DNA from: Przondovirus KP32i192
Strand: one strand, 5' to 3'
Sequence record: OZ035748.1
Length of the DNA: 40,168 bases
Below, piece by piece: positions 831 to 40,168 of the stretch (positions are counted from its first letter, which is position 1; every line of letters begins with the position of its first letter). The notes beneath the pieces were generated by a model that saw only the letters and a program-made list of their open reading frames with translations, had not been told where the DNA came from and made no database searches. The translations under genes and the position numbers were made by a program.

Positions 831-2584
831 GTAACTCTCAGCAAGCCAAGAACGCCTTAATCATTGCGCAACTGAAGGGTGACTTTGTCGCCTTTCTCTT
901 CGTGCTCTGGAAGGCCCTGAACCTGCCGGAACCAACCAAGTGTCAAATCGACATGGCCAAGTGCCTGGCGAACCCAAAGAACAAGAAGTTTATCCTTCAG
1001 GCTTTCCGTGGTATCGGGAAGTCATTCATCACGTGTGCGTTCGTAGTGTGGACCCTTTGGCGTGACCCTCAGTTAAAGATACTGATTGTCTCAGCCTCAA
1101 AGGAACGTGCGGACGCTAACTCCATCTTCATCAAGAACATCATCGACTTGTTGCCTTTCCTGAGTGAGCTTAAGCCTCGCCCCGGTCAGCGTGACTCCGT
1201 GATTAGCTTTGATGTAGGCCCTGCCAAGCCGGACCACAGCCCGTCAGTTAAGTCTGTGGGTATTACGGGTCAGCTTACTGGTAGCCGTGCCGATATCATC
1301 ATTGCGGATGACGTGGAGATTCCCGGTAACTCTGCGACTCAAGGTGCTCGTGAGAAACTCTGGACGCTGGTTCAGGAGTTCGCTGCACTGTTGAAACCCC
1401 TGCCGACTAGCCGTGTTATCTATCTGGGTACCCCTCAGACCGAGATGACGCTCTACAAGGAACTTGAGGACAACCGTGGGTACTCCACCATCATTTGGCC
1501 TGCGCAGTATCCTCGCTCCAAAGAGGAAGACCTGTACTATGGCGACCGACTGGCACCGATGCTCCGCAGTGAGTACGATGAGGACAAAGAGGGTCTCAGC
1601 AGCCAACCTACCGACCCGGTTCGATTCGACTCCATGGACCTTCAGGAGCGTGAGGTGGAATACGGTAAGGCTGGCTACACGCTTCAGTTCATGCTCAACC
1701 CGAACCTTAGTGACGCCGAGAAGTATCCTCTACGCCTCCGTGACGCTATCGTGTGCGGTCTACAGATGGACAAGGCCCCAATGCATTACCAGTGGTTGCC
1801 GAATCGTCAGAACCGCAATGAGGAGCTTCCTAACGTGGGCATGAAGGGTGACGAGATTTACTCATTCCATACGGCATCCAGTAACACTGGTACGTATCAG
1901 GGTAAGATTCTGGTCATCGACCCAAGTGGTCGCGGTAAGGATGAGACTGGCTGGTGCGTACTGTACACCCTCAACGGCTACATCTACCTGATGGACGCTG
2001 GCGGCACTCGCGGTTACGAAGAGAAGTCCCTTGAGTTCCTCGCTAAGAAAGCAAAACAGTGGCAGGTTCAGACTGTGGTCTTCGAGAGTAACTTCGGTGA
2101 CGGTATGTTCGGTAACGTCTTCCAGCCTGTGCTCCTGAAGCATCACCCAGCGCAGCTCGAAGAGATTCGTGCTCGTGGTATGAAAGAGGTACGTATCTGC
2201 GATACCCTTGAGCCTGTACTGGCAAGTCACCGCTTGGTCATCCGCGATGAGGTAATCCGACAGGACTACCAGACGGCACGGGACGCAGACGGTAAGCACG
2301 CTCTGAAGTACAGCCTGTTCTACCAGATGACCCGTATGAGCCGTGAGAAGGGTGCTGTGGCACACGATGACCGACTTGATGCATTAGCATTGGGTGTCGA
2401 GTTCCTACGCTCTACGATGCAGCAGGACGCTGTGAAGATAGAGGCTGAGGTACTTCAGGAGTTCTTGGAGCACCACATGGAGAAGCCCCTGAGTAACATC
2501 TCCCAGTTCCGGGTCACCAGTAGCAACGGTGTGGACATCCGATGGGAAGACGACGGGGACGACTCTATGTTCATCGCATGGTGA
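827..2584 (+). CDS. Terminase large subunit / DNA maturation protein B (T7 gp19-like), TTG start
   Basis: 585-aa ORF collinear with recalled T7 gp19 ([25 protein letters not shown], ATPase and nuclease blocks); start is TTG 6 nt after aaggagg. Confidence 0.9.
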
Positions 2585-2664
2585 TTATGCAAGGATTGTG
2601 CATAAGGATTCATTAGGCCACGGAAGGCCACTTTGAGGAAACTCCATGTATAACAGACACTTGG

Positions 2665-2687
2665 AATTAGGGCACACTATAGGGAGA
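2665..2687 (+). promoter_or_regulatory. Phage RNAP promoter (phiOR-like, right end)
   Basis: AATTAGGGCACACTATAGGGAGA, full match to the window consensus; +1 G at 2682. Confidence 0.75.
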
Positions 2688-2828
2688 GACCCTTGAAGAC
2701 TTACTATAAGACAACTTAAAGATTCATTCATATAGTTATTCACTTTAAGTCTCCTTAAAGGTAGAGGGTAGTGATGATAATATCACCCTCTCACTACAAG
2801 ACACTAAGAGCCAACATAAGGAGGACCT

Positions 2829-2978
2829 ATGCGCTTATTGTTAACCTTACTGCGCCATAGGACTACTTGGCGATTTCTGCTGGTACTTGCTGGTGCCCTT
2901 GGGGCTTCACTGGTTACTCAGCAGCAACTCAGTGGACTGGAGACTCTCGTGTGCTCTCTACTCACTTGTAGCGATTAG
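2829..2978 (+). CDS. Small hydrophobic protein (gp19.5-like by position)
   Basis: 49-aa ORF with aaggagg RBS 8 nt upstream; hydrophobic; lies between terminase gene and genome end as gene 19.5 does in T7. Confidence 0.4.
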   Translation: MRLLLTLLRHRTTWRFLLVLAGALGASLVTQQQLSGLETLVCSLLTCSD

Positions 2979-3039
2979 GGTCTTCCTGACGCGCTAGGGA
3001 TTCCGTAGTGATGCTTATCAGCATACACCACTCCATCCC

Positions 3040-3440
3040 TCTATAGTCAATACTTAAAGTTAACCTTAGGTGATTCACTGGGTCTACCTACGGGTCTATG
3101 CACTGACCTGAGGACTACCTGAGGTTACCTTTAAGAATTTTACATAAAGTTCTGAGTGTACATCTCACAGTTTACACTTTTGGTCATCCCCCCCGGTACC
3201 CCTCCAGTTCACCCAAAGTAACCATGGGTACCCCCCTCTTTACCTTCAGTTTAACCTTGGGTGGTACCTTGGGAGTCCTTAGGTGATACTATATGTTGTG
3301 GTGTGGGTGACCTGAGGATACTATATGTTGATGTCTCTGTGTCCCTATCTGTTGGCCCTCTTTAAGTATCCACTGAGTACCACCTGAGGTTAGACCTGAG
3401 GTAATACCGGAGACCATATACCTTAGGTTAACCATGCGGC
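3040..3440. repeat. Array of short CCT(T/G)(A/G)GG heptamer repeats flanking the terminal-repeat region
   Basis: At least 9 copies of ccttagg / cctgagg / ccttggg, plus a 20-bp imperfect direct repeat (ccttaggtgatactatatgttg at 3277-3298, cctgaggatactatatgttg at 3311-3330); analogous to the short repeats near T7 genome ends. Confidence 0.5.
3163..3350. repeat. Putative direct terminal repeat (single collapsed copy) with predicted physical left end near 3163
   Basis: TCTCACAG at 3163-3170 matches the recalled T7 left-end sequence; TCTCTGTGTCCCTATCTGTT at about 3334-3353 matches the conserved block near the inner edge of the T7 terminal repeat; boundaries inferred. Confidence 0.35.
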
Positions 3441-3492
3441 CATCTGGTGAGTCATCACTATAGGGCTATTGGTGGTCATTGTCAATCAATCC

Positions 3493-3515
3493 TATTAGGA
3501 CACACTATAGGGAGA
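3493..3515 (+). promoter_or_regulatory. Phage RNAP promoter (phiOL-like, left end)
   Basis: TATTAGGACACACTATAGGGAGA; +1 G at 3510. Confidence 0.65.
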
Positions 3516-3594
3516 CACTTAAAGTATTACTTAGGGACCATCACCATAAAGATCACCATCACTATAGGTCTAACTAAAAGTTTAACTTTAAGTG

Positions 3595-3623
3595 TTGACA
3601 TTCAGATTCCGTTATGAGACATT
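3595..3623 (+). promoter_or_regulatory. Candidate host sigma70 early promoter (A1-like)
   Basis: -35 TTGACA (3595-3600), 17-bp spacer, weak -10 GACATT (3618-3623); position and flanks resemble T7 A1. Confidence 0.35.
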
Positions 3624-3726
3624 AGCAACCGTTGAGAGACACAACGCTACCAACCACTAGCATACTTCGAGTTATCTGGTTAGACTGATGGTCTCAAGTA
3701 GTCATCAACCGGACATACGAAAGTGG

Positions 3727-3755
3727 TTGACTCAACGATGAATAAGTAGTAAGAT
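3727..3755 (+). promoter_or_regulatory. Host sigma70 early promoter (A2-like)
   Basis: -35 TTGACT (3727-3732), 17-bp spacer, -10 TAAGAT (3750-3755); same hexamers as recalled T7 A2. Confidence 0.55.
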
Positions 3756-3854
3756 GCACCACAGATTCACGAAGTACCGCTAGGCAACTAGCATTGCTCT
3801 TTAACAATATGGATTAGTCAAGCTGATATGTACACCATGATAATAGTGTTTAAC

Positions 3855-3925
3855 TAGTGGTTACATTCAGGTCTCTGGCAAGGTACGTCCTGTCACCCTG
3901 AGAGTAGCCACAATGATAACCACTA
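3855..3925 (+). promoter_or_regulatory. Candidate long-range stem-loop in gene 0.3 leader (R0.3-like)
   Basis: TAGTGGTTA (3855-3863) is perfectly complementary to TAACCACTA (3917-3925), 9-bp stem enclosing 53 nt, immediately upstream of the gene 0.3 RBS. Confidence 0.3.
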
Positions 3926-29170: not shown

Positions 29171-29761
29171 ATGTGCTGGATGGCAGCCATTCCTATCGCA
29201 ATGACGGCAGTGCAAGCTATCGGTCAGTCACGCAATGAAGCCAAGATGATTGGCCTTCAGAATGACCAGATGCGCCGACAGTCTGCCCAGATGATTAAAG
29301 AGTCAAACATTCAGAACGCTAACGCCAGTCTTGAGCAGAAGCAGAAGCTGGAAGAAGCCAGTGCGGACCTGACCGCTAAGAATCTCGATAAGGTTCAGGC
29401 CATGGGTACAATCCGTGCAGCAATCGGAGAGGGAAACCTTGAGGGTGCCAGCATGGACCGTATCAGTCGAATCGAGGAGGGCAAGTTCATTCGGGAGGCC
29501 AACGCGGTCACCGATAACTACCGTCGAGATTATGCGTCACTGTTCGCTCAGCAGCTGGGTAACTCTGAGTCCACTATCGACCAAGTTAAGTCCATGCAGA
29601 AAGCTGAGGGCAAAGGTAAGTCCAAGCTGGAACAGGTGCTGGACCCGCTGGCATTGATGGGTTCACAAGGTGCCTCAGCGTATGCCTCTGGTGCATTCGA
29701 CAGTAAGGGAACCAAGGCACCAATTAGTCAGGCCCAAGGTACTAAGGTAGGAGGTAAGTAA
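29171..29761 (+). CDS. Internal virion protein B (T7 gp14-like)
   Basis: 196-aa ORF; MCW.AAIPIA and VLDPLA.MGS..ASAYASGAFDSK match T7 gp14. Confidence 0.85.
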   Translation: MCWMAAIPIAMTAVQAIGQSRNEAKMIGLQNDQMRRQSAQMIKESNIQNANASLEQKQKLEEASADLTAKNLDKVQAMGTIRAAIGEGNLEGASMDRISRIEEGKFIREANAVTDNYRRDYASLFAQQLGNSESTIDQVKSMQKAEGKGKSKLEQVLDPLALMGSQGASAYASGAFDSKGTKAPISQAQGTKVGGK

Positions 29762-32016
29762 TGGCCAGTAAATTAGAACAAGCATTAAGCCAACTGCCGC
29801 AGGCCGGGTCTACCCGCATCCGTGGTGGCTCAGCGTCTATGCAGTATCGCCCAGTAACCATTCAACAGGAAGGGTTCCGTCAGTCCAACCTAGTGCAGTC
29901 CTTGGCGAAGTTTGGTACTGCGGTGGGTGAGGCAGCGGATGCCTACGACAAGCGTCAACGGGACAAGGCCGATGAGCGGTCCGACGAGATTATCCGTAAG
30001 TTGACCCCAGAGCAGCGCCGGGAGGCAATCAAGAACGGGACCCTGCTGTATCAGGATGACCCGTACGCTATGGAGGCCCTACGGTTCAAGACTGGTCGTA
30101 ACGCTGCGTTCCTCATTGATGATGAAGTGGCACAGCGTGTTCAGAACGGTGAGTTCCGTACTCGCGCTGAGATGGAAGAGTACCGCCACAAGCGGTTGAC
30201 CGAAGGTGCCAATGAGTTCGCTGAACAGTTCATGATTAACCCTGAGGACTCTGAGTTTCAGAGAGGGTTCAACGCGAACATCACTGAGCGCAACATCTCG
30301 CTGTACGGTAAGCACGATACGTTCCTTAGTGAGCAAGCCCAGAAGGGAGCCATACTGGCATCGAAGGTGGAGCTGTCAGGCGTACTCAAAGACCCAGCCG
30401 TTCTAGCGCGTCCAGAGTCCGGTGAGTTCTTCCAGCGCTACATTGACAATGCGCTTAAGACTGGGAGTATCCCTAGCGACGCTCAGGCCCAGCAGGTCAT
30501 CATCGGGTCCCTTAATGACGTCATTCAGCGTCCGGGTGCTACCAACTTCCTCCAGAGCCTTGCAGACCGTCCGGTGACCCTCAACGGGAAGACCTCGACC
30601 TATAAGGAGCTGATGGGAGAGGAGCAGTGGAACGCCCTGATGGTCAAGGCCCAGTCGACTCAGTTCGACAATGACGCTAAGTTGTCCGAAGGTTTCCGCC
30701 TTGGGATTACCAGCGCGTTGAACCAAGACGACACCAGTAAGGGCTGGGAGATGCTTCAGGGTGCCAAAGCGGAACTTGACCGTCTACAGCCCGGTGAGCA
30801 GATGACCCCAGAGCGTGAGCGTTTGATTCAGGCTGAGGAGCAGATGCAGGCCCGTTTCCGTCAGGAGGCTCAAGCGGCAGCCAAGGAGATGGACAAGCGT
30901 CAGAAGACCATCAACAAGAATCAGGTCATCGACCAGCAGTTCACCAAGCGTATCAACGGTCAGTACGTGTCCACCAGCTACAAGGATATGCCGACCAACG
31001 AGAACACCGGAGAGTTCACTCACAGTGACATGGTGAACTACGCTAACGGTAAGCTGGCCGAGATTGACCAGATGCAGCTCACGGAGCAGCAGAAGGACCG
31101 CATGAAGCTGAGCTACCTACGGGCAGACTCAGAGGGTGGAGCCTTCCGTACCGTTGTGGGCCAGATGGTAACCGACGCTGGGTCTGAATGGTCTGCCGCT
31201 GTGATTAACGGTAAGTTACCGGAGGACACCACAGCGTTGAACAAACTGCGCACCATGCGTAACACCGACCCTGACCTCTTCGCTGCACTGTACCCCGACA
31301 AGGCTGACTTGTTCCTGACGATGGACATGATGGATAAGCAGGGCATTGACCCGCAGATTCTCATCGACGCTGACCGTTCTCGCCGCAGTCTCACCAAGGA
31401 GATGCAGTACGAGGATGATAAGGCGTGGGCGTCCCTGAAGAACAACTCAGAGTCACCAGAGCTGTCCCGCATTCCGGCTAGTCTGGATGGCATGGCCCGT
31501 AAGATTTACGACAGCGTCAAGTACCGTACAGGTAACAGCGACATGGCGATGCAGCAGACCGACAAGTTCCTCAAGGAATCCACTGTGACCTTCAAAGGTG
31601 ATGACGTGGATGGTGATACCATTGGTATTATCCCGAAGAACATCCTACAGGTCAGTGATGACCCTAAGAGCTGGGAGCAGGGCCGAGACATCCTCGAAGA
31701 AGCCCGTAAGGGAATCATAGCGGCTAACCCTTGGGTGACCAACAAGCAGCTGACGATGTACCAGCAGGGCGACTCTATCTACATGATGGACACCACTGGT
31801 ACTGTACGCATCCGCTACGACAAGGAGCTACTGACTCGCACCTATCAGGAACAGCAGCAGCGACTGGCCAAGGAAGCCGAAGAGAAGGCTCTGAAGGAAG
31901 CCACCAAGCGTGCTCCTATCTCCGCAGCCACTCAGGCCCGTAAGGCCGCTGGTGAGCGTGTCCGTGCGAAACGTAAAGCCACTCCGAAGTTCATCTATGG
32001 AGGTGGTGACCAATAA
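29761..32016 (+). CDS. Internal virion protein C (T7 gp15-like)
   Basis: 751-aa ORF, start overlaps gp14 stop (TAATG); size and position match T7 gp15. Confidence 0.85.
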   Translation: MASKLEQALSQLPQAGSTRIRGGSASMQYRPVTIQQEGFRQSNLVQSLAKFGTAVGEAADAYDKRQRDKADERSDEIIRKLTPEQRREAIKNGTLLYQDDPYAMEALRFKTGRNAAFLIDDEVAQRVQNGEFRTRAEMEEYRHKRLTEGANEFAEQFMINPEDSEFQRGFNANITERNISLYGKHDTFLSEQAQKGAILASKVELSGVLKDPAVLARPESGEFFQRYIDNALKTGSIPSDAQAQQVIIGSLNDVIQRPGATNFLQSLADRPVTLNGKTSTYKELMGEEQWNALMVKAQSTQFDNDAKLSEGFRLGITSALNQDDTSKGWEMLQGAKAELDRLQPGEQMTPERERLIQAEEQMQARFRQEAQAAAKEMDKRQKTINKNQVIDQQFTKRINGQYVSTSYKDMPTNENTGEFTHSDMVNYANGKLAEIDQMQLTEQQKDRMKLSYLRADSEGGAFRTVVGQMVTDAGSEWSAAVINGKLPEDTTALNKLRTMRNTDPDLFAALYPDKADLFLTMDMMDKQGIDPQILIDADRSRRSLTKEMQYEDDKAWASLKNNSESPELSRIPASLDGMARKIYDSVKYRTGNSDMAMQQTDKFLKESTVTFKGDDVDGDTIGIIPKNILQVSDDPKSWEQGRDILEEARKGIIAANPWVTNKQLTMYQQGDSIYMMDTTGTVRIRYDKELLTRTYQEQQQRLAKEAEEKALKEATKRAPISAATQARKAAGERVRAKRKATPKFIYGGGDQ

Positions 32017-32032
32017 CCATTAAGGAGACAAC

Positions 32033-35000
32033 ATGAGCTACGACAAGTCCAAACCTAGCGACTACGATGGTATCTTTCAGAAGGCAGCAGACTCTCACGG
32101 AGTTAGCTATGACCTCCTGCGTAAGCTATCGTTTAACGAATCATCCTTCAACCCTAAGGCCGTCTCTAAGACTGGCCCTAAGGGCATCATGCAGTTCACC
32201 CGCAACACGGCCCGAGCGATGGGCCTTAACGTGACCGATGGTGACGACGATGGGCGATACAACCCAGAGTTAGCCATTGACGCTGGCGCTAAACTGCTTG
32301 CGAGCCTCGTTAAGAAGTACAATGGGGATGAGCTGAAAGCAGCCCTAGCGTACAACCAAGGGGAAGGCCCATCGGGTGCCCCTCAGCTCCAAGCGTACGA
32401 CAAGGGAGACTTCGGGTCTATCTCTGAGGAAGGCCGTAACTACATGCGCAAGCTGCTGGATGTGGCCAAGAGTCCGAACTCAGGCGCACTGGAGGCGTTC
32501 GGTGGTATCACCCCAAAGGGTAAAGGGATTCCCGCAGAGGATGCCTTCAAGGGCATCGCTAAGGCTGGCAAGGTAGGTACTGAGCTGCCGGAGTCCCATG
32601 GGTTCGACGTTGAAGGTGTAGCACAGGAAGCACCCAACACTCCGTACGCTAAGGACTTCTGGGAGAAGACCGGGACGACTCTCGACGAGTATAACTCTCG
32701 GTCAACCTTCTTCGGTTTCGGTGATGCTGCTGAGGCTCAGATTCAGAACTCCACATTAGGTGTGGCCTTCCGTGCTGCGCGTGCTGATGATGGGTACGAT
32801 GTGTTCAAGGACACGTTGACCCCGACTCGCTGGAACTCCTATGTCCCGTCTAAGGAGGACTTACAGAAGCTGCGAGACTCCGGGTTACCTCCGAGTTACT
32901 ACGGTGTGGTGACTGGTGGCGACGGCGAGAACTGGGATGCGCTCATCAAGCTGGCCAAGGATAACTTCGAGGCTGACCAACGGGCCGCTGAGGCTGGTAC
33001 TGGGGCGAAACTCGCCGCTGGTATCGTTGGTGCTGGTGTAGACCCACTCAGTTATGTACCGCTGGTCGGTGTGGCCGGGAAGGGACTCAAGGTGGTCAAT
33101 AAGGCCCTGCGAGTAGGTGCACAGGCTGGAGCGCTCAGTGTTGCCTCTGAAGGTATCCGTACGTCAGTCGCTGGTGGCGAAGCTCACTACGCTGATGCGG
33201 CACTTGGTGGGTTACTGTTCGGTGCTGGCATGTCTGCCCTTAGTGACGCTGTGGCCGCTGGCATTCGTAAGGCTCGTGGAGTGGACTCCGTAAATGAGTT
33301 CGCTGGTCCAGCACTCCGCATGGAAGCACGAGAGACTGCCATCAACACTGGCGGTCACGACACCTCGACGCTACCTCCAGAGAACTTCTCGTTCGAGCAG
33401 GACCACAGAGGTGTTCCGTTCGCCGACCACCCGACCGAAGAGGGCGCAGTGGTTCTGGCCAATGGTTCCATCCTGAGCGATACCAACCCGCTTAACCCAA
33501 GGACTCAACGTGACTTCGCAGAGATTGACCCAGAGCGTGCAGCTCCCGGTATCAAACTCGGTGGGTTCACTGAGATCGGCCTGAAGACCTTAGGGTCCAA
33601 GGATGCTGGTGTTCGTGCAATTGCTCAGGACCTCGTTCGCTCGCCTACAGGGATGCAATCAGGGTCTAGCGGTAAGTTCGGTGCCACCGCTTCGGATATC
33701 CACGAGCGTCTCCACGCGACTGACCAGCGGATGTATAACCAGCTGTATGACGCTGTTGACCGTGCCATGAAGGACCCAGAGTTCTCCGTGGGCGAGCAGA
33801 AGATGTCACGCAGAGCCATCCGTCAGGAAGTCTACAAGCGTGCCGCCTTGGCGATTGAGCGTCCAGAGTTACAGGCTGATTTGACCAAAGGTGAACGTGA
33901 GGTGATGGACCTGCTGAAAGAGCACTTCGACACCAAGCGTGAACTGATGGAACAGCCGGGTATCTTCGGTAACGCTAACGCCGTGAGCATCTTCCCCGGT
34001 AGTCGACACAAGGGTACCTACGTTCCTAACGTGTACGACAGGGGCGCTAAGGAACTGATGATGCAGAAGCTGGGTGGACCTGAAGGACTCCAACAGGCAA
34101 TCGCTCAGAGCTGGCTCACCAGTTACCGAGTGCGGCCTGAGGTCAAGGCACGTGTCGACGAGTACCTGATGGAACTTAACGGCTACAAGTCGGTAGACCA
34201 AGTGACACCTGAGGTGGTCCAGAAGCACGCCATGGACAAGGCTTACGGTATCAGTCACACAGAGGACTTCACAGCGTCCAGCGTCATTGACGACAACATC
34301 ACAGGTCTGGTCGGTATCGAGAACAACTCGTTCCTTGAAGCCCGTAACATGTTCGACAGCGACCTCCCGGTCACCTTGCCGGACGGGTCAACCTTCAGTG
34401 TAAACGACCTGAGGGACTTCGACATGGCACGGATTATCCCAGCGTACGACCGTCGAGTTAACGGTGATATCTCCATCATGGGCGGCAGCGGTAAGACCAC
34501 GAAGCAGCTCAAGGACGAAATCATGGCGCTGGACAAGAAGGCCGAACGCAAGGGACAACTGAAGGGTGAAGTGGAAGCACTGAAGGACACCGTTAAGATT
34601 CTCACTGGACGTGCTCGTCGTAACAACGATACAGCCTTTGAGACCGCTATGCGCACCCTGAATGACCTAGCGTTCTTCGCTAAGAACTTCTACATGGGTC
34701 CGCAGAACCTCACAGAGATTGCTGGGATGTTGGCCAAGGGTAACGTTAAGGCGATGCTCCACGGCATCCCAACGTTGCGTGACCTAGCCACCAGAACCTC
34801 TCCGGTGTCCGGTAGTGAACTCCGTGAACTCCATGGGGCGCTGTTCGGTAAGGAACTCGACCAGTTAATCCGTCCGGGGCGTGAGGATATCGTGCAGCGA
34901 ATCCGTGAGGCTTCCGATACCAGTGGGGCCATGGCGTCAGTCATTGGTACCATTAAGTTTGGCACTCAGGAGTTGTCAGCGCGCTCTCCTTGGACCAAGA

Positions 35001-35998
35001 TGCTGAACGGTACGGCTAACTACATTCTGGACACTGCCCGTCAGGGTGTGCTAGGTGATGTGGCTGGTGCGGCCCTAGGCGGCAAGGGTTCCAAGTTTGG
35101 CAAAGAGAACTTCCTCAAAGCTGCCTCTATCAGTCCTGAGCAGTGGAAGGGAATCAAGCAACTCTTTGTCGACCACGCGACTCGGGACGCTAACGGCCAG
35201 TTCACCATCAAGGACAAGAAGGCTTTCAGTCAGGACCCGAGAGCGATGGACCTGTGGCGTCTTGCTGATAAGGTTGCAGACGAGACCATGCTGCGACCTC
35301 ATAAGGTATCCCAGCAGGATTCCAAGGCGTACGGTGCTGGCGTCAAGATGGCTATGCAGTTCAAGAACTTCACCATCAAGTCACTCAACGCCAAGTTCAT
35401 TCGGTCCTTCTACGAGGGCTACAAGAACAACCGCGCTATCGACATGGCACTGACCCACATCCTGTCGCTTGGTATCGCCGGGACTTACTTTGCGATGCAG
35501 GCCCATGTGAAGGCTTACGGCCTCCAAGAGTCTCAGCGTAAGGACTACCTGAAGAAAGCCCTGAACCCTACCATGCTGGGCTACGCAGCGTTGACTCGAA
35601 GTTCCCACACTGGTGCCCCGCTGTCCATCGCCTCGATGATTGCTGGTGCCGCTGGGTTCCAAGACGCCAACATGCTGCGCTCCACCATCCTACCTAAGGA
35701 GGAACAGTTCCAGAAGAAAGACGGAGCGTCCAAAGGTCGAGCCGAGTCGAGCAACCTTGCAGGCAACTTGGGGTCTCAGGTCCCGGCTCTGGGTTACGTA
35801 GGGAACGTCATTGCTACCGCCAAGAACGCTTATGGTGTTGCTACAGCACCTAACAAGCCGACTGAGCGTGACTATATGACTGGCCTGATGAACTCCACCA
35901 AGGAGCTTGTTCCAAACGACCCGCTGACCCAGCAGCTCATCATGAAAATCTATGAGGCTAACGGGGTAACCATCAAGCAACAGCCGAAGCCTAACTAA
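32033..35998 (+). CDS. Internal virion protein D with N-terminal lytic transglycosylase domain (T7 gp16-like)
   Basis: 1321-aa ORF; N-terminal SLT-like motif (FNESSFNP...GPKGIMQF); size matches T7 gp16 (1318 aa). Confidence 0.9.
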   Translation: MSYDKSKPSDYDGIFQKAADSHGVSYDLLRKLSFNESSFNPKAVSKTGPKGIMQFTRNTARAMGLNVTDGDDDGRYNPELAIDAGAKLLASLVKKYNGDELKAALAYNQGEGPSGAPQLQAYDKGDFGSISEEGRNYMRKLLDVAKSPNSGALEAFGGITPKGKGIPAEDAFKGIAKAGKVGTELPESHGFDVEGVAQEAPNTPYAKDFWEKTGTTLDEYNSRSTFFGFGDAAEAQIQNSTLGVAFRAARADDGYDVFKDTLTPTRWNSYVPSKEDLQKLRDSGLPPSYYGVVTGGDGENWDALIKLAKDNFEADQRAAEAGTGAKLAAGIVGAGVDPLSYVPLVGVAGKGLKVVNKALRVGAQAGALSVASEGIRTSVAGGEAHYADAALGGLLFGAGMSALSDAVAAGIRKARGVDSVNEFAGPALRMEARETAINTGGHDTSTLPPENFSFEQDHRGVPFADHPTEEGAVVLANGSILSDTNPLNPRTQRDFAEIDPERAAPGIKLGGFTEIGLKTLGSKDAGVRAIAQDLVRSPTGMQSGSSGKFGATASDIHERLHATDQRMYNQLYDAVDRAMKDPEFSVGEQKMSRRAIRQEVYKRAALAIERPELQADLTKGEREVMDLLKEHFDTKRELMEQPGIFGNANAVSIFPGSRHKGTYVPNVYDRGAKELMMQKLGGPEGLQQAIAQSWLTSYRVRPEVKARVDEYLMELNGYKSVDQVTPEVVQKHAMDKAYGISHTEDFTASSVIDDNITGLVGIENNSFLEARNMFDSDLPVTLPDGSTFSVNDLRDFDMARIIPAYDRRVNGDISIMGGSGKTTKQLKDEIMALDKKAERKGQLKGEVEALKDTVKILTGRARRNNDTAFETAMRTLNDLAFFAKNFYMGPQNLTEIAGMLAKGNVKAMLHGIPTLRDLATRTSPVSGSELRELHGALFGKELDQLIRPGREDIVQRIREASDTSGAMASVIGTIKFGTQELSARSPWTKMLNGTANYILDTARQGVLGDVAGAALGGKGSKFGKENFLKAASISPEQWKGIKQLFVDHATRDANGQFTIKDKKAFSQDPRAMDLWRLADKVADETMLRPHKVSQQDSKAYGAGVKMAMQFKNFTIKSLNAKFIRSFYEGYKNNRAIDMALTHILSLGIAGTYFAMQAHVKAYGLQESQRKDYLKKALNPTMLGYAALTRSSHTGAPLSIASMIAGAAGFQDANMLRSTILPKEEQFQKKDGASKGRAESSNLAGNLGSQVPALGYVGNVIATAKNAYGVATAPNKPTERDYMTGLMNSTKELVPNDPLTQQLIMKIYEANGVTIKQQPKPN

Positions 35999-36019
35999 TT
36001 AGGACACACTATAGGGAGA
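35997..36019 (+). promoter_or_regulatory. Phage RNAP promoter (phi17-like)
   Basis: AATTAGGACACACTATAGGGAGA. Confidence 0.75.
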
Positions 36020-36059
36020 CCCGACGGTTTCCCTTCTCATCCAACTAAAGGAGGTCACA

Positions 36060-38393
36060 ATGGACCAAGACATTAAAACAGTCATTCAGTACCCAGTAGG
36101 GGCCACTGAGTTCGACATCCCGTTCGACTACCTGTCCCGCAAGTTTGTCCGCGTGTCGTTGGTGTCAGACGACAACCGCAGACTGCTGAGCAACATCACT
36201 GAGTACCGCTACGTGTCTAAGACCAGAGTGAAACTGCTGGTAGCAACCACTGGTTTCGACCGTGTAGAGATTCGTCGGTTCACATCTGCGTCAGAGCGAG
36301 TGGTGGACTTTAGTGACGGTTCTGTATTACGCGCCAACGACCTTAACGTCTCACAGCTGCAATCTGCACATATCGCCGAAGAAGCACGCGATGCGGCACT
36401 TCTGGCAATGCCGGAGGATGATGCTGGCAACCTAGACGCCCGTAACAGAAAGATTGTTCGACTGGCTCCCGGAGAGACTGGTACAGACGCTGTCAACAAG
36501 AATCAACTGGACACAACCTTAGGTGAGGCTGGCGGTATTCTCAGTGAAGTTAAGGACCTCCAGAAAGACATTGAGGATTACCTACAGAACTGGGGAGATG
36601 ACACCACAGCTATTCGCGGCGTTCTCTGGGTATACAACCAAGGGTCCGCAGTGGGCGGTGAGACCTCCTTCGTGATTACCAAAGAGGGGCCTGTCCTTGC
36701 GGTTCCGTACATCGAGATTAACGGCAGCCGTCAATACCGTGGGTGGCACTACGAGTATGACTTAGGGTCCAAGACAATCACGCTGGCGAAACCGCTTTCT
36801 GCTGGGGATTTGGTCGTATGCACCACCGCTGAGACTACACTGCCACTGGCGGATTCACTCGCAGGTCCGACTGGTGCTTCTCAGATTGGTACCGCCAACG
36901 GGCTGAATGTACAGATTGCACTGGACAATCTACGCTCAGGGGTTAACGTTCTGGACTTTATGACCTTTGCTGAGCGAGCCGCTGTCCTGAACTACACAGG
37001 AACCAATGACAACTCTGAGGCATTCCGAAAGGCATTCGCCACCGGGACACGCCAAATAATTGTCCCTCCGGGAAGATATCACGTAAAAGACGTTGTAATA
37101 CCCGCTAAGGTGAAACTGTTTGGTACGTACTCCTACAAGCCTTATAACGTGACAAGTGATGCATCCTTTGGTACAGACGGTACGATTATTCGTAAAGTGG
37201 CTGGCGCAGATAACATGTTTCTGTGGAATACTGCATGTGCCGCTGAGGGTGTGATGTTCGATGGTCGTGACCGCACGTCCCCAGCCATTCAGTCACAGTC
37301 TGGTGGTAAAATAACTGTAGGGTTCTTCAAGTGCGGGTTCTATCGCTTCGACCGAGTAGGTAACCGCCGGGGCGCATACATCGGGTGCTCCTTCCAGTTC
37401 TGTAACTTCAACCAGAACAACATTGGGATTTACAATACGGTAGATGGGAACCACATCGGGTGTACCATCAACGCCAACAAGTCCCACGGTGTTATGCTCG
37501 AAACAGGCGCGAACTCCAACACGTTCACTAACTGTCGAAACGAGTGGAACGAAGGTGACAACTGGAACTTCTACGGTGCTACTTCGATTCAGGTAATCAA
37601 CGAACTGTGCGACCGTGCGTTCGGCTATGGGTTCCGTATCAGCAACTCCTCGGTGACACTGATTAACGTCAACATTAGGCGTTCTGCGAGAACAGCCGCA
37701 TCGGGGGCAGCAAGCGCTCAGATTTACTTTGAGTCGTCTACCCTCAAGATGATTGGGGTGAACAGCTCCGTGGGCGGTGATGACACTGGCGGTTCTATCA
37801 CTGAGCCTTCGCCTGATTACTTCTTCAGGATGGCAGGTACCAGCGAGGGTCGCCTTGAGATTAGTGACAGTCGCCTCACAGGCTATACTGTTGGGCTAAT
37901 CTCGGGTACAGCACGTCCTTCAGTTATCCGTGTGATAAACTCTCCGGGTTGGGAGGACACGATTAACGAGGGGGTCGCTCGCATATCAGGAGGCAGGCCG
38001 TACATTGGTACAATGCCAACAGCGACTGGTCCGGCAAACGTTAGCCCAGCTGTATTGGGACTGTCCTGTGGTGGAGTAAACACCTACGATAACGACATGT
38101 TTGATATTCACCTGACTATCCGAAATACCAATAACGGAGGCCATAATGGTGCAATCCTCACTGTGTTGCTTTACCGTGAGGGCGGAGCCGCTCGTGCGAC
38201 AATCGTACGAGTAGACAGTCGGTCCAATGCCGTGGGTGAGGGAGATGTGAATAGCACCTCAGCAGACCCTCAGCAGACCTATCAAGTGTCCGTGGAGGTT
38301 ACGTCAAACGATGCGTCTACTTTCAACCTACTGGTCTCCACCAAGTCGGACAACAACGCATCCTACCGCTTCAGGGCGAAAGTTAAACCATAA
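36060..38393 (+). CDS. Tailspike / tail fiber: T7 gp17-like N-terminal anchor fused to a beta-helix (capsule depolymerase-like) domain
   Basis: First ~150 aa match T7 gp17 N-terminal domain (FDIPFDYLSRKFV...RLVDF.DGS.LRA.DLNV.Q); the rest is unrelated to T7 and has a pectate-lyase-like motif (LDFMTFAERAAVLNYTGTNDNSEAFRKAFATG...IIVPPGRYHV) and Gly/Asn/Ser/Thr-rich repeats. Confidence 0.8.
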   Translation: MDQDIKTVIQYPVGATEFDIPFDYLSRKFVRVSLVSDDNRRLLSNITEYRYVSKTRVKLLVATTGFDRVEIRRFTSASERVVDFSDGSVLRANDLNVSQLQSAHIAEEARDAALLAMPEDDAGNLDARNRKIVRLAPGETGTDAVNKNQLDTTLGEAGGILSEVKDLQKDIEDYLQNWGDDTTAIRGVLWVYNQGSAVGGETSFVITKEGPVLAVPYIEINGSRQYRGWHYEYDLGSKTITLAKPLSAGDLVVCTTAETTLPLADSLAGPTGASQIGTANGLNVQIALDNLRSGVNVLDFMTFAERAAVLNYTGTNDNSEAFRKAFATGTRQIIVPPGRYHVKDVVIPAKVKLFGTYSYKPYNVTSDASFGTDGTIIRKVAGADNMFLWNTACAAEGVMFDGRDRTSPAIQSQSGGKITVGFFKCGFYRFDRVGNRRGAYIGCSFQFCNFNQNNIGIYNTVDGNHIGCTINANKSHGVMLETGANSNTFTNCRNEWNEGDNWNFYGATSIQVINELCDRAFGYGFRISNSSVTLINVNIRRSARTAASGAASAQIYFESSTLKMIGVNSSVGGDDTGGSITEPSPDYFFRMAGTSEGRLEISDSRLTGYTVGLISGTARPSVIRVINSPGWEDTINEGVARISGGRPYIGTMPTATGPANVSPAVLGLSCGGVNTYDNDMFDIHLTIRNTNNGGHNGAILTVLLYREGGAARATIVRVDSRSNAVGEGDVNSTSADPQQTYQVSVEVTSNDASTFNLLVSTKSDNNASYRFRAKVKP

Positions 38394-38403
38394 GGAGAAC
38401 CAC

Positions 38404-39978
38404 ATGTTAGACAGACTGAATCAGCCGAAAGGCTCAACCATTGGTGTGCTCAAGGATGGGCGCACTATCCAAGAGGCTATTGATGACTTGTATGTGTTTA
38501 AGGATTCTCAAGGATTCATAAACGTGGACATGCAGACTGGTGCCACCCTTGAGGAGAAGCTGCGCAATTCTTTTACGATAGCCAATACGCTACTTGTGGG
38601 CGTACGCCTGACGGCTGGTAAGGTATACCCGCTGACTGGCACAACTCCGCTTGAGGTGAACCTAGCTAAGTTCTCGCTGTTCACTTCAGGAGGCCGTGCT
38701 ACGATTGACGCCTCAGAGTTCACTGGGCCGACTGCGTTGTGGATTCACGCCACAGGCTCCTATCCGACACCCATGTATCGAAACACGACCAACTACATGG
38801 AGTCCATCGAGCTTGTGGGTGGGCTTAAGGCTGGCGTCGACGGGTGGACTTGGGGTAACCGTGGGATGACCACCGGAACCGAGTACAACGGTCAGTGTAT
38901 AATCCGTGGGTGCAGCGTTTACAAGTTCGACAACTGCATCAAATGTACTGACTCGTCTTGGCGCTACAAGGTATCTGACTGCATGATCTCTACGGGAATC
39001 ACCTCTGTGTTCAACGCCCCTGCTGGACTGATTGACTCCGGCGAGTCCATAACCTTCAGCGACACTCAGTTCTCCGACTCGAACGGGGCTAAGTTCATCA
39101 TTGCGTGTGCAAACTTCAGTGTAGGCATGTCCGGCACAAGTGTGCTCAATACCCCGGTTGTTATCTCTGGGAATGGTGCTTCACTGCTCATCGACGGCAT
39201 GGGGAACAACGAGAACCCCGGTAAAACTTCTTGGATGCGCTACGTCGAGGTGACTGGAATCGGAGCACGCTTCATCCTACAGTCCTCAACGCTCGTGTGT
39301 AACGGCCCATCTTCTCAGACCAGACCGCTTGTGCTTGTTGGGGCGAAAGCTCGCGCAATCTTCATTGCCGTCAAGTTCCCCGGTAACCTCTATATGTTCC
39401 ATGTGAATAACCCAGAGAAGGTGCGAACATTCTGTGAAGGCGAGGGTATCGTTAAGACAATCGCGTGTACATACGACATTGAATCGGGGGCTGGTAACAT
39501 TCCAGTCCACCGCTCACTTAACCGATTCTACAATAACGGGTTCGAGCAGGACTTGGCTGGATGGGCGCTTAACGTTGGTGGCGACCCAGCACAGACGGCT
39601 ACAATCGTCACGGATGATACCAACAGCGGTGGTAAGGCGGTTAAGGTTGCCTCTCTGGATGGTAAGAGTGTGTTCCTTACCCAGAATGTCAGAGTGTCTT
39701 CTGGAGAGGAGTTTGCATCGTTCGTGGCCTACAAGGTCAATAAGGCGGCATCCGGCTCAACACCGGGTAACCTGACAGTAACCTTTAAGTCCGAGAATGG
39801 TACCACTATCGGTACAGGCTCGACGTCTAACTTCTCGAACACTGTCGGGGCGTGGCAGCAAGGTGGCCTGTTCTGCCGAGGCGTTGCCCCAGTAGGTGCT
39901 GTATCCGCTGAGATATCTCTCCGTGTTCGTGATGGTGCTGAGGTTATCCTTGATGACGTTATCGTAAACTTCTTGTAA
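38404..39978 (+). CDS. Second tailspike / receptor-binding protein lacking the gp17 anchor domain (putative second depolymerase)
   Basis: 524-aa product from ATG with taaggag RBS 10 nt after gp17 stop; no T7 counterpart; Gly/Thr/Ser/Asn/Val-rich composition suggests beta-rich fold. Confidence 0.6.
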   Translation: MLDRLNQPKGSTIGVLKDGRTIQEAIDDLYVFKDSQGFINVDMQTGATLEEKLRNSFTIANTLLVGVRLTAGKVYPLTGTTPLEVNLAKFSLFTSGGRATIDASEFTGPTALWIHATGSYPTPMYRNTTNYMESIELVGGLKAGVDGWTWGNRGMTTGTEYNGQCIIRGCSVYKFDNCIKCTDSSWRYKVSDCMISTGITSVFNAPAGLIDSGESITFSDTQFSDSNGAKFIIACANFSVGMSGTSVLNTPVVISGNGASLLIDGMGNNENPGKTSWMRYVEVTGIGARFILQSSTLVCNGPSSQTRPLVLVGAKARAIFIAVKFPGNLYMFHVNNPEKVRTFCEGEGIVKTIACTYDIESGAGNIPVHRSLNRFYNNGFEQDLAGWALNVGGDPAQTATIVTDDTNSGGKAVKVASLDGKSVFLTQNVRVSSGEEFASFVAYKVNKAASGSTPGNLTVTFKSENGTTIGTGSTSNFSNTVGAWQQGGLFCRGVAPVGAVSAEISLRVRDGAEVILDDVIVNFL

Positions 39979-39990
39979 CACGGAGGTATC

Positions 39991-40168
39991 ATGTTATCCC
40001 TAGACTTCAACAACGAAGTTATCAAGGCGGCTCCCATTGCGGGGGTCGCTGGGGCTGATGGCGTAGCGAGGCTCTTCTGGGGCCTCTCACTCAACGAGTG
40101 GTTCTACGTCGCGGCAATCGCCTACACAGTGGTTCAGATTGGTGCCAAGGTAGTCGACAAAATCATTG
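39991..40168 (+). CDS. Holin (T7 gp17.5-like), 5' part; continues at window positions 1-26
   Basis: MLSLDFNNEVIKAAPIAGVAGADGVARLFWGLSLNEWFYVAAIAYTVVQIGAKVVDKII nearly identical to recalled T7 gp17.5; ORF runs off the window end. Confidence 0.8.
   Translation, partial: MLSLDFNNEVIKAAPIAGVAGADGVARLFWGLSLNEWFYVAAIAYTVVQIGAKVVDKII

What the first reader, a model, noticed from the sequence alone, without database searches (positions are those of the whole stretch)
36060..39978. Dual tailspike locus: gp17 anchor-depolymerase fusion plus an anchorless second receptor-binding protein
The sequence shows a T7 gp17-like N-terminal anchor fused to a non-T7 domain with a pectate-lyase-like motif, followed 10 nt later by a second large ORF with its own RBS and no anchor. 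By established knowledge of K11/KP32-like Klebsiella podophages, two tailspikes with different capsule depolymerase specificities occur in this arrangement and set host range. These are the only large genes in the window without a T7 counterpart, and the middle of gp17 looks more AT-rich than the backbone by eye, hinting at modular exchange (inference).
Basis: partly seen in the sequence, partly recalled or inferred. Interest (0 to 1): 0.65.

Follow-up and report, generated by a model that had tools for sequence, protein, structure and literature searches.

The report
Known Klebsiella phage dual tailspike locus
This is the ordinary, already characterised two-tailspike host-range cassette of a KP32-like Klebsiella podophage: an anchored capsule depolymerase (KL111, probably also K22/K37) that carries a second, piggy-backed K2-capsule depolymerase.

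Summary
ORF1 (36060-38393, 777 aa) has a T7 gp17 N-terminal domain followed by non-T7 sequence. Ten nucleotides after its stop codon, ORF2 (38404-39978, 524 aa) starts behind its own TAAGGAG ribosome-binding site.

The locus is 99.8% identical in DNA to Klebsiella phage KP32_isolate 192 (KP192). The proteins differ from tspA192 and tspB192 by one residue each. They are 98.5% and 97.9% identical to Kp9 gp42 (solved structure 7XY1/7Y1C) and gp43.

Published experiments assign KL111 to tspA192 and K2 to tspB192. Near-identical KLEO13gp10 and gp09 were typed as K22/K37/KL111 and K2/K13.

My models give right-handed beta-helix tailspike folds for both proteins. ORF2 superposes on the K2-2 K2-capsule hydrolase (TM 0.84) and keeps both catalytic glutamates (E214, E270).

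Two corrections:
- ORF2 is not anchorless. It has the conserved ~29-residue N-terminal docking peptide found in 219 phage records, and ORF1 has a matching branching domain (aa ~186-258).
- The AT-richness is slight (GC 0.514 against 0.531 +/- 0.022). Modular exchange is shown by comparison with relatives, not by composition.

Verdict: already known, low interest.

The parts
36000..36019 (+). Phage-RNA-polymerase promoter (K11/KP32-type, TAGGACACACTATAGGGAGA) upstream of tspA. It probably drives tspA, tspB and the downstream lysis and packaging genes.
   Evidence: The consensus has 11 copies in the window, all on the + strand, against 0 expected in shuffles. No sigma-70-like site or intrinsic terminator lies in 35900-40168.
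36048..36055 (+). Ribosome-binding site AAGGAGGT of tspA, 4 nt before the ATG.
   Evidence: Read directly from the sequence.
36060..38393 (+). tspA (gene 17 homologue, 'type A / type I' tailspike), 777 aa. It is an anchored capsule depolymerase.
   Evidence: 776/777 identical to KP192 AWN07083 and 765/777 to Kp9 gp42. PDB 7xy1/7y1c matches with E=0. phrog_6518 matches full length. dN/dS against Kp9 is 0.029.
36060..36521 (+). tspA aa 1-154: T7 gp17-like N-terminal anchor/adapter domain, which plugs into the tail.
   Evidence: Pfam PF03906, E 3.2e-36, aa 3-154. It aligns to T7 gp17 7boz aa 4-160 and to other T7-like fibre N-domains, 8e4g and 8dsp.
36615..36833 (+). tspA aa ~186-258: branching (T4gp10-like) domain, the inferred docking site for tspB.
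   Evidence: phmmer gives E 2e-13 to 2.5e-21 against the N-terminal assembly regions of multi-tailspike phage proteins (7rfo/7rej aa 263-329, 9d80, 9d83, 6w4q aa 21-81). Many PHROG tailspike families match aa 185-256 only. The T4gp10 assignment itself comes from Latka 2019 (PMC6872550).
37008..38015 (+). tspA aa ~317-652: right-handed beta-helix catalytic/receptor-binding domain. Conserved acidic residues are D401, D404, D462, E495, E515, D518 and D575.
   Evidence: AF2 model pLDDT is 82, and above 90 through the helix. Foldseek top hit is 7xy1 (E 1.9e-67), followed by beta-helix tailspikes and polysaccharide-active enzymes. Conserved residues come from 24 homologues. Domain limits are those given for KLEO13gp10 in DepoCatalog supplementary dataset 3.
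38016..38390 (+). tspA aa 653-777: C-terminal beta-sandwich domain. It is kept in the natural beta-helix deletion variants such as Kp11 gp45.
   Evidence: The model shows all-beta strands at model residues 515-627, which correspond to protein aa ~664-776. Kp11 gp45 joins aa 277 directly to aa 651.
38391..38397 (+). Ribosome-binding site TAAGGAG of tspB. It overlaps the tspA stop codon and lies 6 nt before the ATG.
   Evidence: Read directly from the sequence.
38404..39978 (+). tspB ('type B / type II' tailspike), 524 aa. It is a K2 (probably K2/K13) capsule depolymerase.
   Evidence: 523/524 identical to KP192, 513/524 to Kp9 gp43 and 393/399 to KLEO13gp09. phrog_4217 matches at E 3.8e-161. 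dN/dS against Kp9 is 0.041.
38404..38490 (+). tspB aa 1-29: conserved N-terminal docking peptide (MLDRLNQPKGSTIGVLKDGRTIQEAIDDL).
   Evidence: tblastn finds it in 219 phage records, nearly all Klebsiella Przondovirus-type. Most matches stop at aa 27-33. It is shared with KP32gp38 (6tku aa 1-42, E 1.4e-8), K5 RBP2 and K5-4 ORF38. In Kund-ULIP54, DNA homology ends at window 38486 and a different receptor-binding domain follows.
38545..39516 (+). tspB aa 48-371: beta-helix hydrolase domain. The catalytic pair is E214 (39043-39045) and E270 (39211-39213).
   Evidence: The model superposes on K2-2 TSP 8iq9/8iq5 with TM 0.84 and E 1.6e-33. K2-2 Glu267 and Glu323 (PMC10936425) align to E214 and E270, and both are invariant in 27 homologues.
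39517..39975 (+). tspB aa 372-524: C-terminal beta-sandwich domain, like a carbohydrate-binding module.
   Evidence: Foldseek matches to CBM16, CBM61, CBM22 and CBM4 modules cover about 155 residues. It is equivalent to the K2-2 C-terminal domain, aa 421-577 (PMC10936425).

Best explanation
The locus encodes the anchor-branch dual receptor-binding apparatus of a KP32-like (Przondovirus, 'group A') Klebsiella podophage.

Expression. Both genes are most likely transcribed from the phage promoter at 36000-36019, and each is translated from its own RBS.

tspA. tspA trimers insert into the tail through the T7 gp17-like N-domain (aa 1-154). A branching domain follows (aa ~186-258). The rest is a beta-helix plus a C-terminal domain that binds and cleaves KL111 capsule, and by near-identity to KLEO13gp10 probably also K22 and K37.

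tspB. tspB trimers have no gp17 domain. They dock on the tspA branching domain through their conserved ~29-aa N-terminal peptide. Their beta-helix is a K2-2-type retaining glycosidase (E214/E270 in an inter-subunit groove) that depolymerises K2 capsule, and probably K13.

Consequence. Host range is the union of the two specificities. The receptor-binding parts behave as exchangeable cassettes bounded by the conserved adapter sequences.

What is shown here: gene anatomy, domain homologies, folds, conservation of the catalytic residues, near-identity to characterised proteins, and the cassette boundaries.

What is taken from the literature on >=98%-identical proteins: trimer state and capsule specificities.

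What is inferred: the physical tspB-on-tspA docking, the catalytic chemistry of tspA, and co-transcription of the two genes.
For: Identity to characterised phages:
- The locus is 99.8% identical to KP192 over 4 kb. The proteins are 776/777 and 523/524 identical.
- Kp9 gp42 (98.5% identical) is solved as 7XY1/7Y1C.
- Kp9 gp43 (97.9%) robustly digests purified K2 capsule, while gp42 does not (bioRxiv 10.1101/2024.05.19.594906).
- Synthetic tailspike swaps assign KL111 to tspA192 and K2 to tspB192 (PMC12295037, PMC12692247).
- Recombinant KLEO13gp10 (398/399 identical over the 399 aa available) acts on K22/K37/KL111. KLEO13gp09 (393/399) acts on K2/K13 (PMC13385381).

Domains and folds:
- Pfam PF03906 covers aa 3-154 of tspA.
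- The branching domain has homologues in multi-tailspike phages.
- The docking peptide occurs in 219 phage records, mostly ending at aa ~29.
- The tspB model matches K2-2 TSP at TM 0.84. E214 and E270 are invariant.
- The tspA model is a beta-helix.

Selection and natural variants:
- Purifying selection acts on both genes (dN/dS 0.03-0.04).
- Kund-ULIP54 keeps tspA and the tspB peptide but has a different tspB body.
- Kp11 keeps the adapter part of tspA plus tspB but has deleted the tspA beta-helix.
Against: - Nothing was measured on this exact sequence. One substitution in each protein separates it from KP192 (E596K, T275S).
- tspB residues 274-276, next to catalytic E270, differ in every relative compared. 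Fine specificity could therefore differ.
- K2-2's K2-recognition residue Arg331 aligns to M278; R279 is adjacent.
- T4 gp10 itself was not retrieved by sequence search, only other phages' branching domains.
- Docking of tspB on tspA has not been visualised for this lineage, as far as the tools show.
- Kp9 gp42 had no activity on K2 capsule. tspA's enzymatic activity therefore rests on the KLEO13gp10 and KP192 work.
- The tspA catalytic residues and its chemistry (hydrolase or lyase) are unknown.
Confidence: 0.93

Rival explanations
1. ORF2 is a gp17-associated chaperone or assembly factor rather than a second receptor-binding enzyme.
For: It is encoded immediately downstream of the fibre gene, as tail-fibre chaperones often are. 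Pfam and NCBIfam give no significant family.
Against: It is a full-length homologue of a crystallised K2 capsule hydrolase, with both catalytic Glu conserved. The 97.9%-identical Kp9 gp43 is a virion protein that digests K2 capsule. At 524 aa it has a beta-helix plus a CBM-like domain.
Confidence: 0.01
2. tspA is a non-enzymatic fibre or adapter. Its only essential role is to carry tspB, and its beta-helix is a binding module or is decaying.
For: Kp9 gp42 showed no activity on K2 capsule. Natural variants (Kp11, H5, EKp2, P6169) have deleted the beta-helix and still grow on K2 hosts. No catalytic residues have been defined.
Against: dN/dS across the beta-helix is 0.016. Seven acidic residues are conserved across 24 homologues. 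KLEO13gp10, nearly identical, degrades K22/K37/KL111 as a recombinant protein. KP192 infects KL111 strains through tspA192.
Confidence: 0.04
3. The two tailspikes act together on one capsule type rather than extending host range.
For: Huang et al. suggest synergy for Kp7, where both fibres act on K2.
Against: For this lineage the specificities are disjoint: gp42 is inactive on K2, tspA192 is assigned KL111 and tspB192 K2. The deletion variants lacking the tspA beta-helix still infect K2 hosts.
Confidence: 0.02

Closest known systems
Klebsiella phage KP32_isolate 192 (KP192; MH172261 / NC_047968) tspA192 and tspB192
   Same: Same genes, order, spacing and regulatory signals. DNA is 99.8% identical over 36000-40000. 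The proteins are 776/777 and 523/524 identical. Published specificities are KL111 (A) and K2 (B).
   Different: One substitution in each protein (E596K in tspA, T275S in tspB). The rest of the genome is a mosaic 91-99% identical to KP192, so this is a close relative rather than the same isolate. The GenBank record starts tspB at an upstream ATG (555 aa).
Klebsiella phage Kp9 gp42 (type I tail fibre, PDB 7XY1/7Y1C) and gp43 (type II tail fibre/depolymerase)
   Same: 98.5% and 97.9% protein identity, with the same lengths and arrangement. gp43 digests K2 capsule.
   Different: About 93% DNA identity, mostly synonymous changes. Substitutions cluster at tspB aa 219-319, including 275 and 276.
Klebsiella phage KLEO13 gp10 and gp09 (DepoCatalog, PMC13385381)
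   Same: 398/399 and 393/399 identical over the part of each sequence available. Lengths are the same (777 and 524 aa). Recombinant enzymes were typed K22/K37/KL111 and K2/K13.
   Different: Only the first 399 residues could be compared. The tripeptide at 274-276 is RSA in gp09 and KTS here.
K2-2 tailspike of phage VLC6 (PDB 8IQ5/8IQ9; retaining hydrolase, Glu267/Glu323)
   Same: Same fold (TM 0.84), same domain order (beta-helix then beta-sandwich), both catalytic glutamates conserved, and K2 specificity in the close relatives.
   Different: Only about 24% identity in the structural alignment. The N-terminal particle-binding domain differs: K2-2 has a barrel domain for a Drulisvirus adapter, tspB a 29-aa peptide. 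Arg331 is not aligned to an Arg.
KP32 gp37/gp38 and K11 gp17/second RBP (KP32viruses group A anchor-branch system, Latka 2019)
   Same: Same architecture. The N-terminal ~300 aa of the first RBP and the 29-aa peptide of the second RBP are shared.
   Different: The receptor-binding bodies are unrelated in sequence and specificity (KP32: K3 and K21).
T7 gp17 tail fibre
   Same: The N-terminal tail-attachment domain (aa 4-156; PF03906).
   Different: Everything distal differs. T7 has a coiled-coil shaft and a tip domain that binds LPS. It has no branching domain, no enzyme and no second fibre.

Membership tests
KP32viruses group A dual-RBP 'anchor-branch' system (Latka et al. 2019) | Two RBP genes sit directly after the internal virion protein D (gp16) gene and before the holin. 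| tested here: met
   gp16 homologue 32033-35998, tspA 36060-38393, tspB 38404-39978, holin from 39991.
KP32viruses group A dual-RBP 'anchor-branch' system (Latka et al. 2019) | The first RBP has a T7 gp17 N-terminal domain (pfam03906, aa 1-154). | tested here: met
   PF03906, E 3.2e-36, aa 3-154, 124.8 bits against a cut-off of 25.2.
KP32viruses group A dual-RBP 'anchor-branch' system (Latka et al. 2019) | The first RBP has a T4gp10-like branching domain at about aa 190-256. | tested here: inconclusive
   aa 186-258 are clearly homologous to N-terminal assembly domains of other multi-tailspike phage proteins (7rfo/7rej, 9d80, 9d83, 6w4q; E down to 2.5e-21). T4 gp10 itself was not retrieved by phmmer. 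The gp10 link rests on HHpred results reported by Latka 2019 for KP32.
KP32viruses group A dual-RBP 'anchor-branch' system (Latka et al. 2019) | The second RBP lacks the anchor but carries the conserved ~29-aa N-terminal peptide. | tested here: met
   No PF03906 hit. The peptide matches KP32gp38 aa 1-42 and is found in 219 phage records, mostly ending at aa 27-33. Alignment.
KP32viruses group A dual-RBP 'anchor-branch' system (Latka et al. 2019) | Both RBPs have beta-helical enzymatic domains. | tested here: met
   AF2 models plus Foldseek.
KP32viruses group A dual-RBP 'anchor-branch' system (Latka et al. 2019) | The second RBP is physically attached to the first RBP on the virion. | not testable with these tools
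   Inferred from the architecture.
K2-2-type K2 capsule hydrolase (PDB 8IQ5) | Right-handed beta-helix followed by a C-terminal beta-sandwich. | tested here: met
   Foldseek TMq 0.84, E 1.6e-33 to 8iq9/8iq5. CBM-like matches for the C-terminus.
K2-2-type K2 capsule hydrolase (PDB 8IQ5) | Catalytic pair Glu267/Glu323. | tested here: met
   They align to E214 and E270, which are invariant in 27 homologues.
K2-2-type K2 capsule hydrolase (PDB 8IQ5) | Arg331 forms a salt bridge to the K2 glucuronate. | tested here: inconclusive
   It aligns to M278, while R279 aligns to K2-2 Arg332. A one-residue shift in the loop cannot be excluded.
K2-2-type K2 capsule hydrolase (PDB 8IQ5) | Depolymerises K2 capsule. 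| not testable with these tools
   Shown for Kp9 gp43 (97.9% identical), for KLEO13gp09, and for tspB192 by phage swaps.
Pectate lyase superfamily, sequence families (e.g. Pfam PF12708 Pectate_lyase_3) | Significant match to the Pfam model. | tested here: not met
   No such hit at E<=1 for either protein. Only the general beta-helix fold is shared.
T7 gp17 tail fibre | Coiled-coil shaft and C-terminal tip domain of T7 gp17. | tested here: not met
   Only aa 4-156 align with 7boz (553 aa).

The most novel reading that the evidence does not exclude
Two modest readings remain open.
1. The hypervariable tripeptide at tspB aa 274-276 sits four residues after catalytic E270, in the loop that contacts substrate in K2-2. 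It reads KTS here, KSS in KP192, KRT in Kp9 and RSA in KLEO13. It could be a site of diversifying selection that tunes K2 versus K13 (or O-acetyl variant) preference.
2. This genome may be a natural recombinant that holds the KP192-type cassette (99.8% identical over ~5 kb) in a more diverged mosaic backbone.
Neither reading would change the known picture of the system.
Probability: 0.2. Interest if true: 0.25.

Novelty: already known. Interest (0 to 1): 0.1.

Why it matters
The locus sets the phage's host range (K2 and KL111, probably also K13, K22 and K37 capsule types). That is useful for phage-therapy matching and for depolymerase engineering. All of this is already published for proteins differing by one residue, so the finding adds only a further natural allele. 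It also illustrates the cassette boundaries and recurrent rearrangements in this lineage.

Tried and rejected
- Pfam and NCBIfam gave no enzymatic family for either protein. The only sub-threshold hits were chance ones (BOF, Tc5 transposase, YgiW).
- The first literature query, on 'Kp9 / type I tail fiber', returned nothing. Searching PDB codes and the isolate name found the papers.
- Composition as evidence of horizontal transfer was rejected. GC of the tspA body is within 1 sd of the genome mean, and the only strongly low-GC stretch is the non-coding genome end at 2.6-3.9 kb.
- A search for an internal promoter or terminator between the two genes found none.
- The chaperone hypothesis for ORF2 was rejected on fold and catalytic residues.
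- The upstream ATG at 38311 as the tspB start was rejected. It has no RBS logic, it overlaps tspA by 83 nt, and the conserved peptide begins at 38404.
- A direct T4 gp10 hit was not obtained by phmmer.


Full report
**Observation**

The region holds two large + strand ORFs.
- ORF1 runs from 36060 to 38393 (777 aa). It is preceded by AAGGAGGT, and by a perfect copy of the phage promoter consensus TAGGACACACTATAGGGAGA at 36000-36019. That consensus occurs 11 times in the window, always on the + strand, against none in shuffles.
- ORF1's stop codon is at 38391-38393. The sequence TAAGGAGAACCACATG places the start of ORF2 at 38404, exactly 10 nt downstream and 6 nt after the GGAG.
- ORF2 ends at 39978 (524 aa). 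The holin gene starts at 39991.
- The mechanical ORF list, and the KP192 GenBank record, extend ORF2 to an upstream ATG at 38311. The RBS, the Kp9 annotation and the fact that N-terminal homology to other phages' second tailspikes begins at residue 1 all favour 38404.
- No sigma-70-like promoter or intrinsic terminator is predicted in 35900-40168. The two genes are therefore most likely co-transcribed (inference).

**What the window is**

The locus is 99.8% identical to Klebsiella phage KP32_isolate 192 (KP192, MH172261/NC_047968). It is 93-99% identical to about 20 other Przondovirus genomes, including Kp9 and KpV763.

The window as a whole is a circular permutation of a complete genome.
- The holin ORF runs off the window end and finishes at window position 26.
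- Window 3163-3346 matches both ends of the KP192 record, so it is the collapsed terminal repeat.

Against KP192 the backbone is a mosaic of blocks 91-99% identical. The stretch from about 35.2 kb to the window end is 99.4-100% identical. At protein level ORF1 is 776/777 identical to KP192 tspA and ORF2 is 523/524 identical to KP192 tspB. Against Kp9 gp42 and gp43 they are 765/777 and 513/524 identical.

**ORF1 (tspA)**

- *Anchor domain.* Pfam finds the T7 tail-fibre N-terminal domain at aa 3-154 (E 3.2e-36). Only aa 4-156 align with T7 gp17 (7boz).
- *Branching domain.* Residues about 186-258 are homologous to N-terminal assembly domains of tailspikes from multi-tailspike phages (7rfo/7rej, 9d80, 9d83, 6w4q), and to that segment only of many PHROG tailspike families. 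This is the segment that Latka et al. 2019 call the T4gp10-like branching domain. T4 gp10 itself was not retrieved here.
- *Full-length matches.* The whole protein matches PDB 7xy1/7y1c with E=0.
- *Fold.* An AlphaFold2 model of aa 150-777 has pLDDT 82, and above 90 through the helix. It matches 7xy1 (E 1.9e-67), then right-handed beta-helix tailspikes and polysaccharide-active enzymes.
- *Family and residues.* No pectate-lyase Pfam family is detected. Seven acidic residues in the helix are conserved in 24 homologues. The catalytic chemistry is unknown.

**ORF2 (tspB)**

Curated family libraries give nothing significant. PHROG 4217 (tail) matches at E 3.8e-161. phmmer finds Kp7 gp52 (7xyc) and the K2-2 tailspike (8iq5/8iqe) at E 1e-41 to 1e-45.

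The AlphaFold2 model (pLDDT 82.8) superposes on K2-2 with TM 0.84. It also matches Kp7 gp52 and CBA120 TSP4. The C-terminal ~150 residues match carbohydrate-binding-module beta-sandwiches.

K2-2 is a K2-capsule depolymerase whose catalytic residues Glu267 and Glu323 were established by mutagenesis (PMC10936425). DepoCatalog lists it as a retaining hydrolase.
- In the alignment these residues correspond to E214 and E270 of ORF2. Both are invariant in a 27-sequence alignment.
- K2-2's Arg331 aligns to M278, with R279 next to it.

ORF2 is therefore an enzyme homologue, not a chaperone.

**'Anchorless' needs qualification**

The first ~29 residues of ORF2 (MLDRLNQPKGSTIGVLKDGRTIQEAIDDL) recur in 219 phage records, almost all Klebsiella Przondovirus-type. 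Most matches end at residue 27-33. The peptide is shared with KP32gp38, K5 RBP2 and K5-4 ORF38, whose bodies are unrelated to tspB. Latka 2019 proposed that this peptide docks on the branching domain of the first RBP, and lists KP32-192 AWN07083/AWN07084 in 'group A'.

**Modularity**

Composition is weak evidence.
- GC of the tspA body is 0.514 against 0.531 +/- 0.022 genome-wide, the 11th percentile.
- GC3 is lower than in the neighbouring late genes gp12, gp15 and gp16 (0.56 against 0.64-0.68).

Comparison with relatives is decisive.
- Kund-ULIP54 shares tspA and the first ~28 codons of tspB (homology ends at 38486). It then has an unrelated 536-aa body, and homology resumes at 39982, just after the stop codon.
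- Kp11 (and, from the and one search hit patterns, probably H5, EKp2 and P6169) has a 1119-nt in-frame deletion between two ATTGGTAC repeats (36885-36892 and 38004-38011). This removes the tspA beta-helix but keeps the anchor, the branching domain, the C-terminal domain and tspB.
- K37PH164C1 carries a 127-bp tandem duplication that splits tspA.

dN/dS against Kp9 is 0.029 for tspA and 0.041 for tspB, so both are under purifying selection.

**Published function of near-identical proteins**

- Huang et al. (bioRxiv 10.1101/2024.05.19.594906): Kp9 gp43 robustly digests purified K2 capsule, while gp42 does not.
- Baykov et al. (PMC12295037, PMC12692247): KP192 infects K2 and KL111 strains. Synthetic tailspike transplantation gives specificity consistent with tspA192 = KL111 and tspB192 = K2. 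tspB is described as attached to the T4gp10-like domain of tspA.
- DepoCatalog (PMC13385381): recombinant KLEO13gp10 (777 aa; 398/399 identical to ORF1 over the text available) acts on K22/K37/KL111. KLEO13gp09 (524 aa; 393/399 identical to ORF2) acts on K2/K13.

**Verdict**

1. ORF2 has a docking peptide rather than no anchor.
2. There is no detectable pectate-lyase sequence family, and hydrolase chemistry is likely for tspB.
3. The composition signal is weak.

The system, and these very proteins to within one residue, are already described structurally, genetically and biochemically. Novelty is 'already known' and interest is low.

Noticed in passing
window 39991-40168 joined to 1-26; window 3163-3346: The window is a circular permutation of a complete Przondovirus genome. 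The holin ORF is split across the window ends. A ~184-bp stretch matches both termini of the KP192 record, so it is the collapsed direct terminal repeat.
   Followed up: partly
window 39223-39231 (tspB aa 274-276): This tripeptide is hypervariable and lies four residues after catalytic E270. It reads KTS here, KSS in KP192, KRT in Kp9 and RSA in KLEO13gp09. It sits in the loop equivalent to the substrate-contacting Pro325-Arg331 loop of K2-2.
   Followed up: partly
window 36885-36892 and 38004-38011; L006 (Kp11) 1562-2776: Kp11 carries a 1119-nt in-frame deletion between two ATTGGTAC direct repeats. It removes the tspA beta-helix (aa 278-650) and leaves the anchor, branching domain and C-terminal domain. 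H5, EKp2 and P6169 show similar hit patterns, suggesting related deletions in a K2-host lineage.
   Followed up: partly
window 37078-37204; L007 (K37PH164C1) 1061-3521: K37PH164C1 has a 127-bp tandem duplication inside tspA that splits it into two annotated ORFs. It could be a real frameshifting duplication or an assembly artefact. Notably, the phage is named for a K37 host, which fits the K22/K37/KL111 specificity of this tspA type.
   Followed up: no
L005 (phi1_146052) 38045-39517: The tspB homologue of phi1_146052 lacks aa 47-80 (a 34-aa in-frame deletion at the start of the beta-helix cap region). It is otherwise about 99% identical.
   Followed up: no
window 38311-38403: The GenBank annotation of KP192 and KP32_194 starts tspB at an upstream in-frame ATG. 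This gives a 555-aa product that overlaps tspA by 83 nt. The evidence favours the 524-aa product starting at 38404.
   Followed up: yes
window 29200-31500 and 34000-35100: Blocks inside the internal virion protein genes (gp14-gp16 region) are only 93-95% identical to KP192, between flanks that are 98-100% identical. This is a fine-scale recombination mosaic in the structural module.
   Followed up: partly
window 2600-3900: This is the lowest-GC stretch of the window (0.44-0.46). It is largely non-coding, lies between the terminase large subunit gene and the first early gene, and contains two phage promoters (2668, 3496) and the terminal repeat.
   Followed up: no
PDB entry 23sh (chains r and B), seen: One solved entry contains a 307-aa 'tail fiber gp9' that aligns with tspA aa 12-256. 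It also contains a 577-aa 'tail spike gp1' that is homologous to tspB and the same length as the native K2-2 protein. This may be an adapter-plus-tailspike assembly and could serve as a structural template for the docking step.
   Followed up: no
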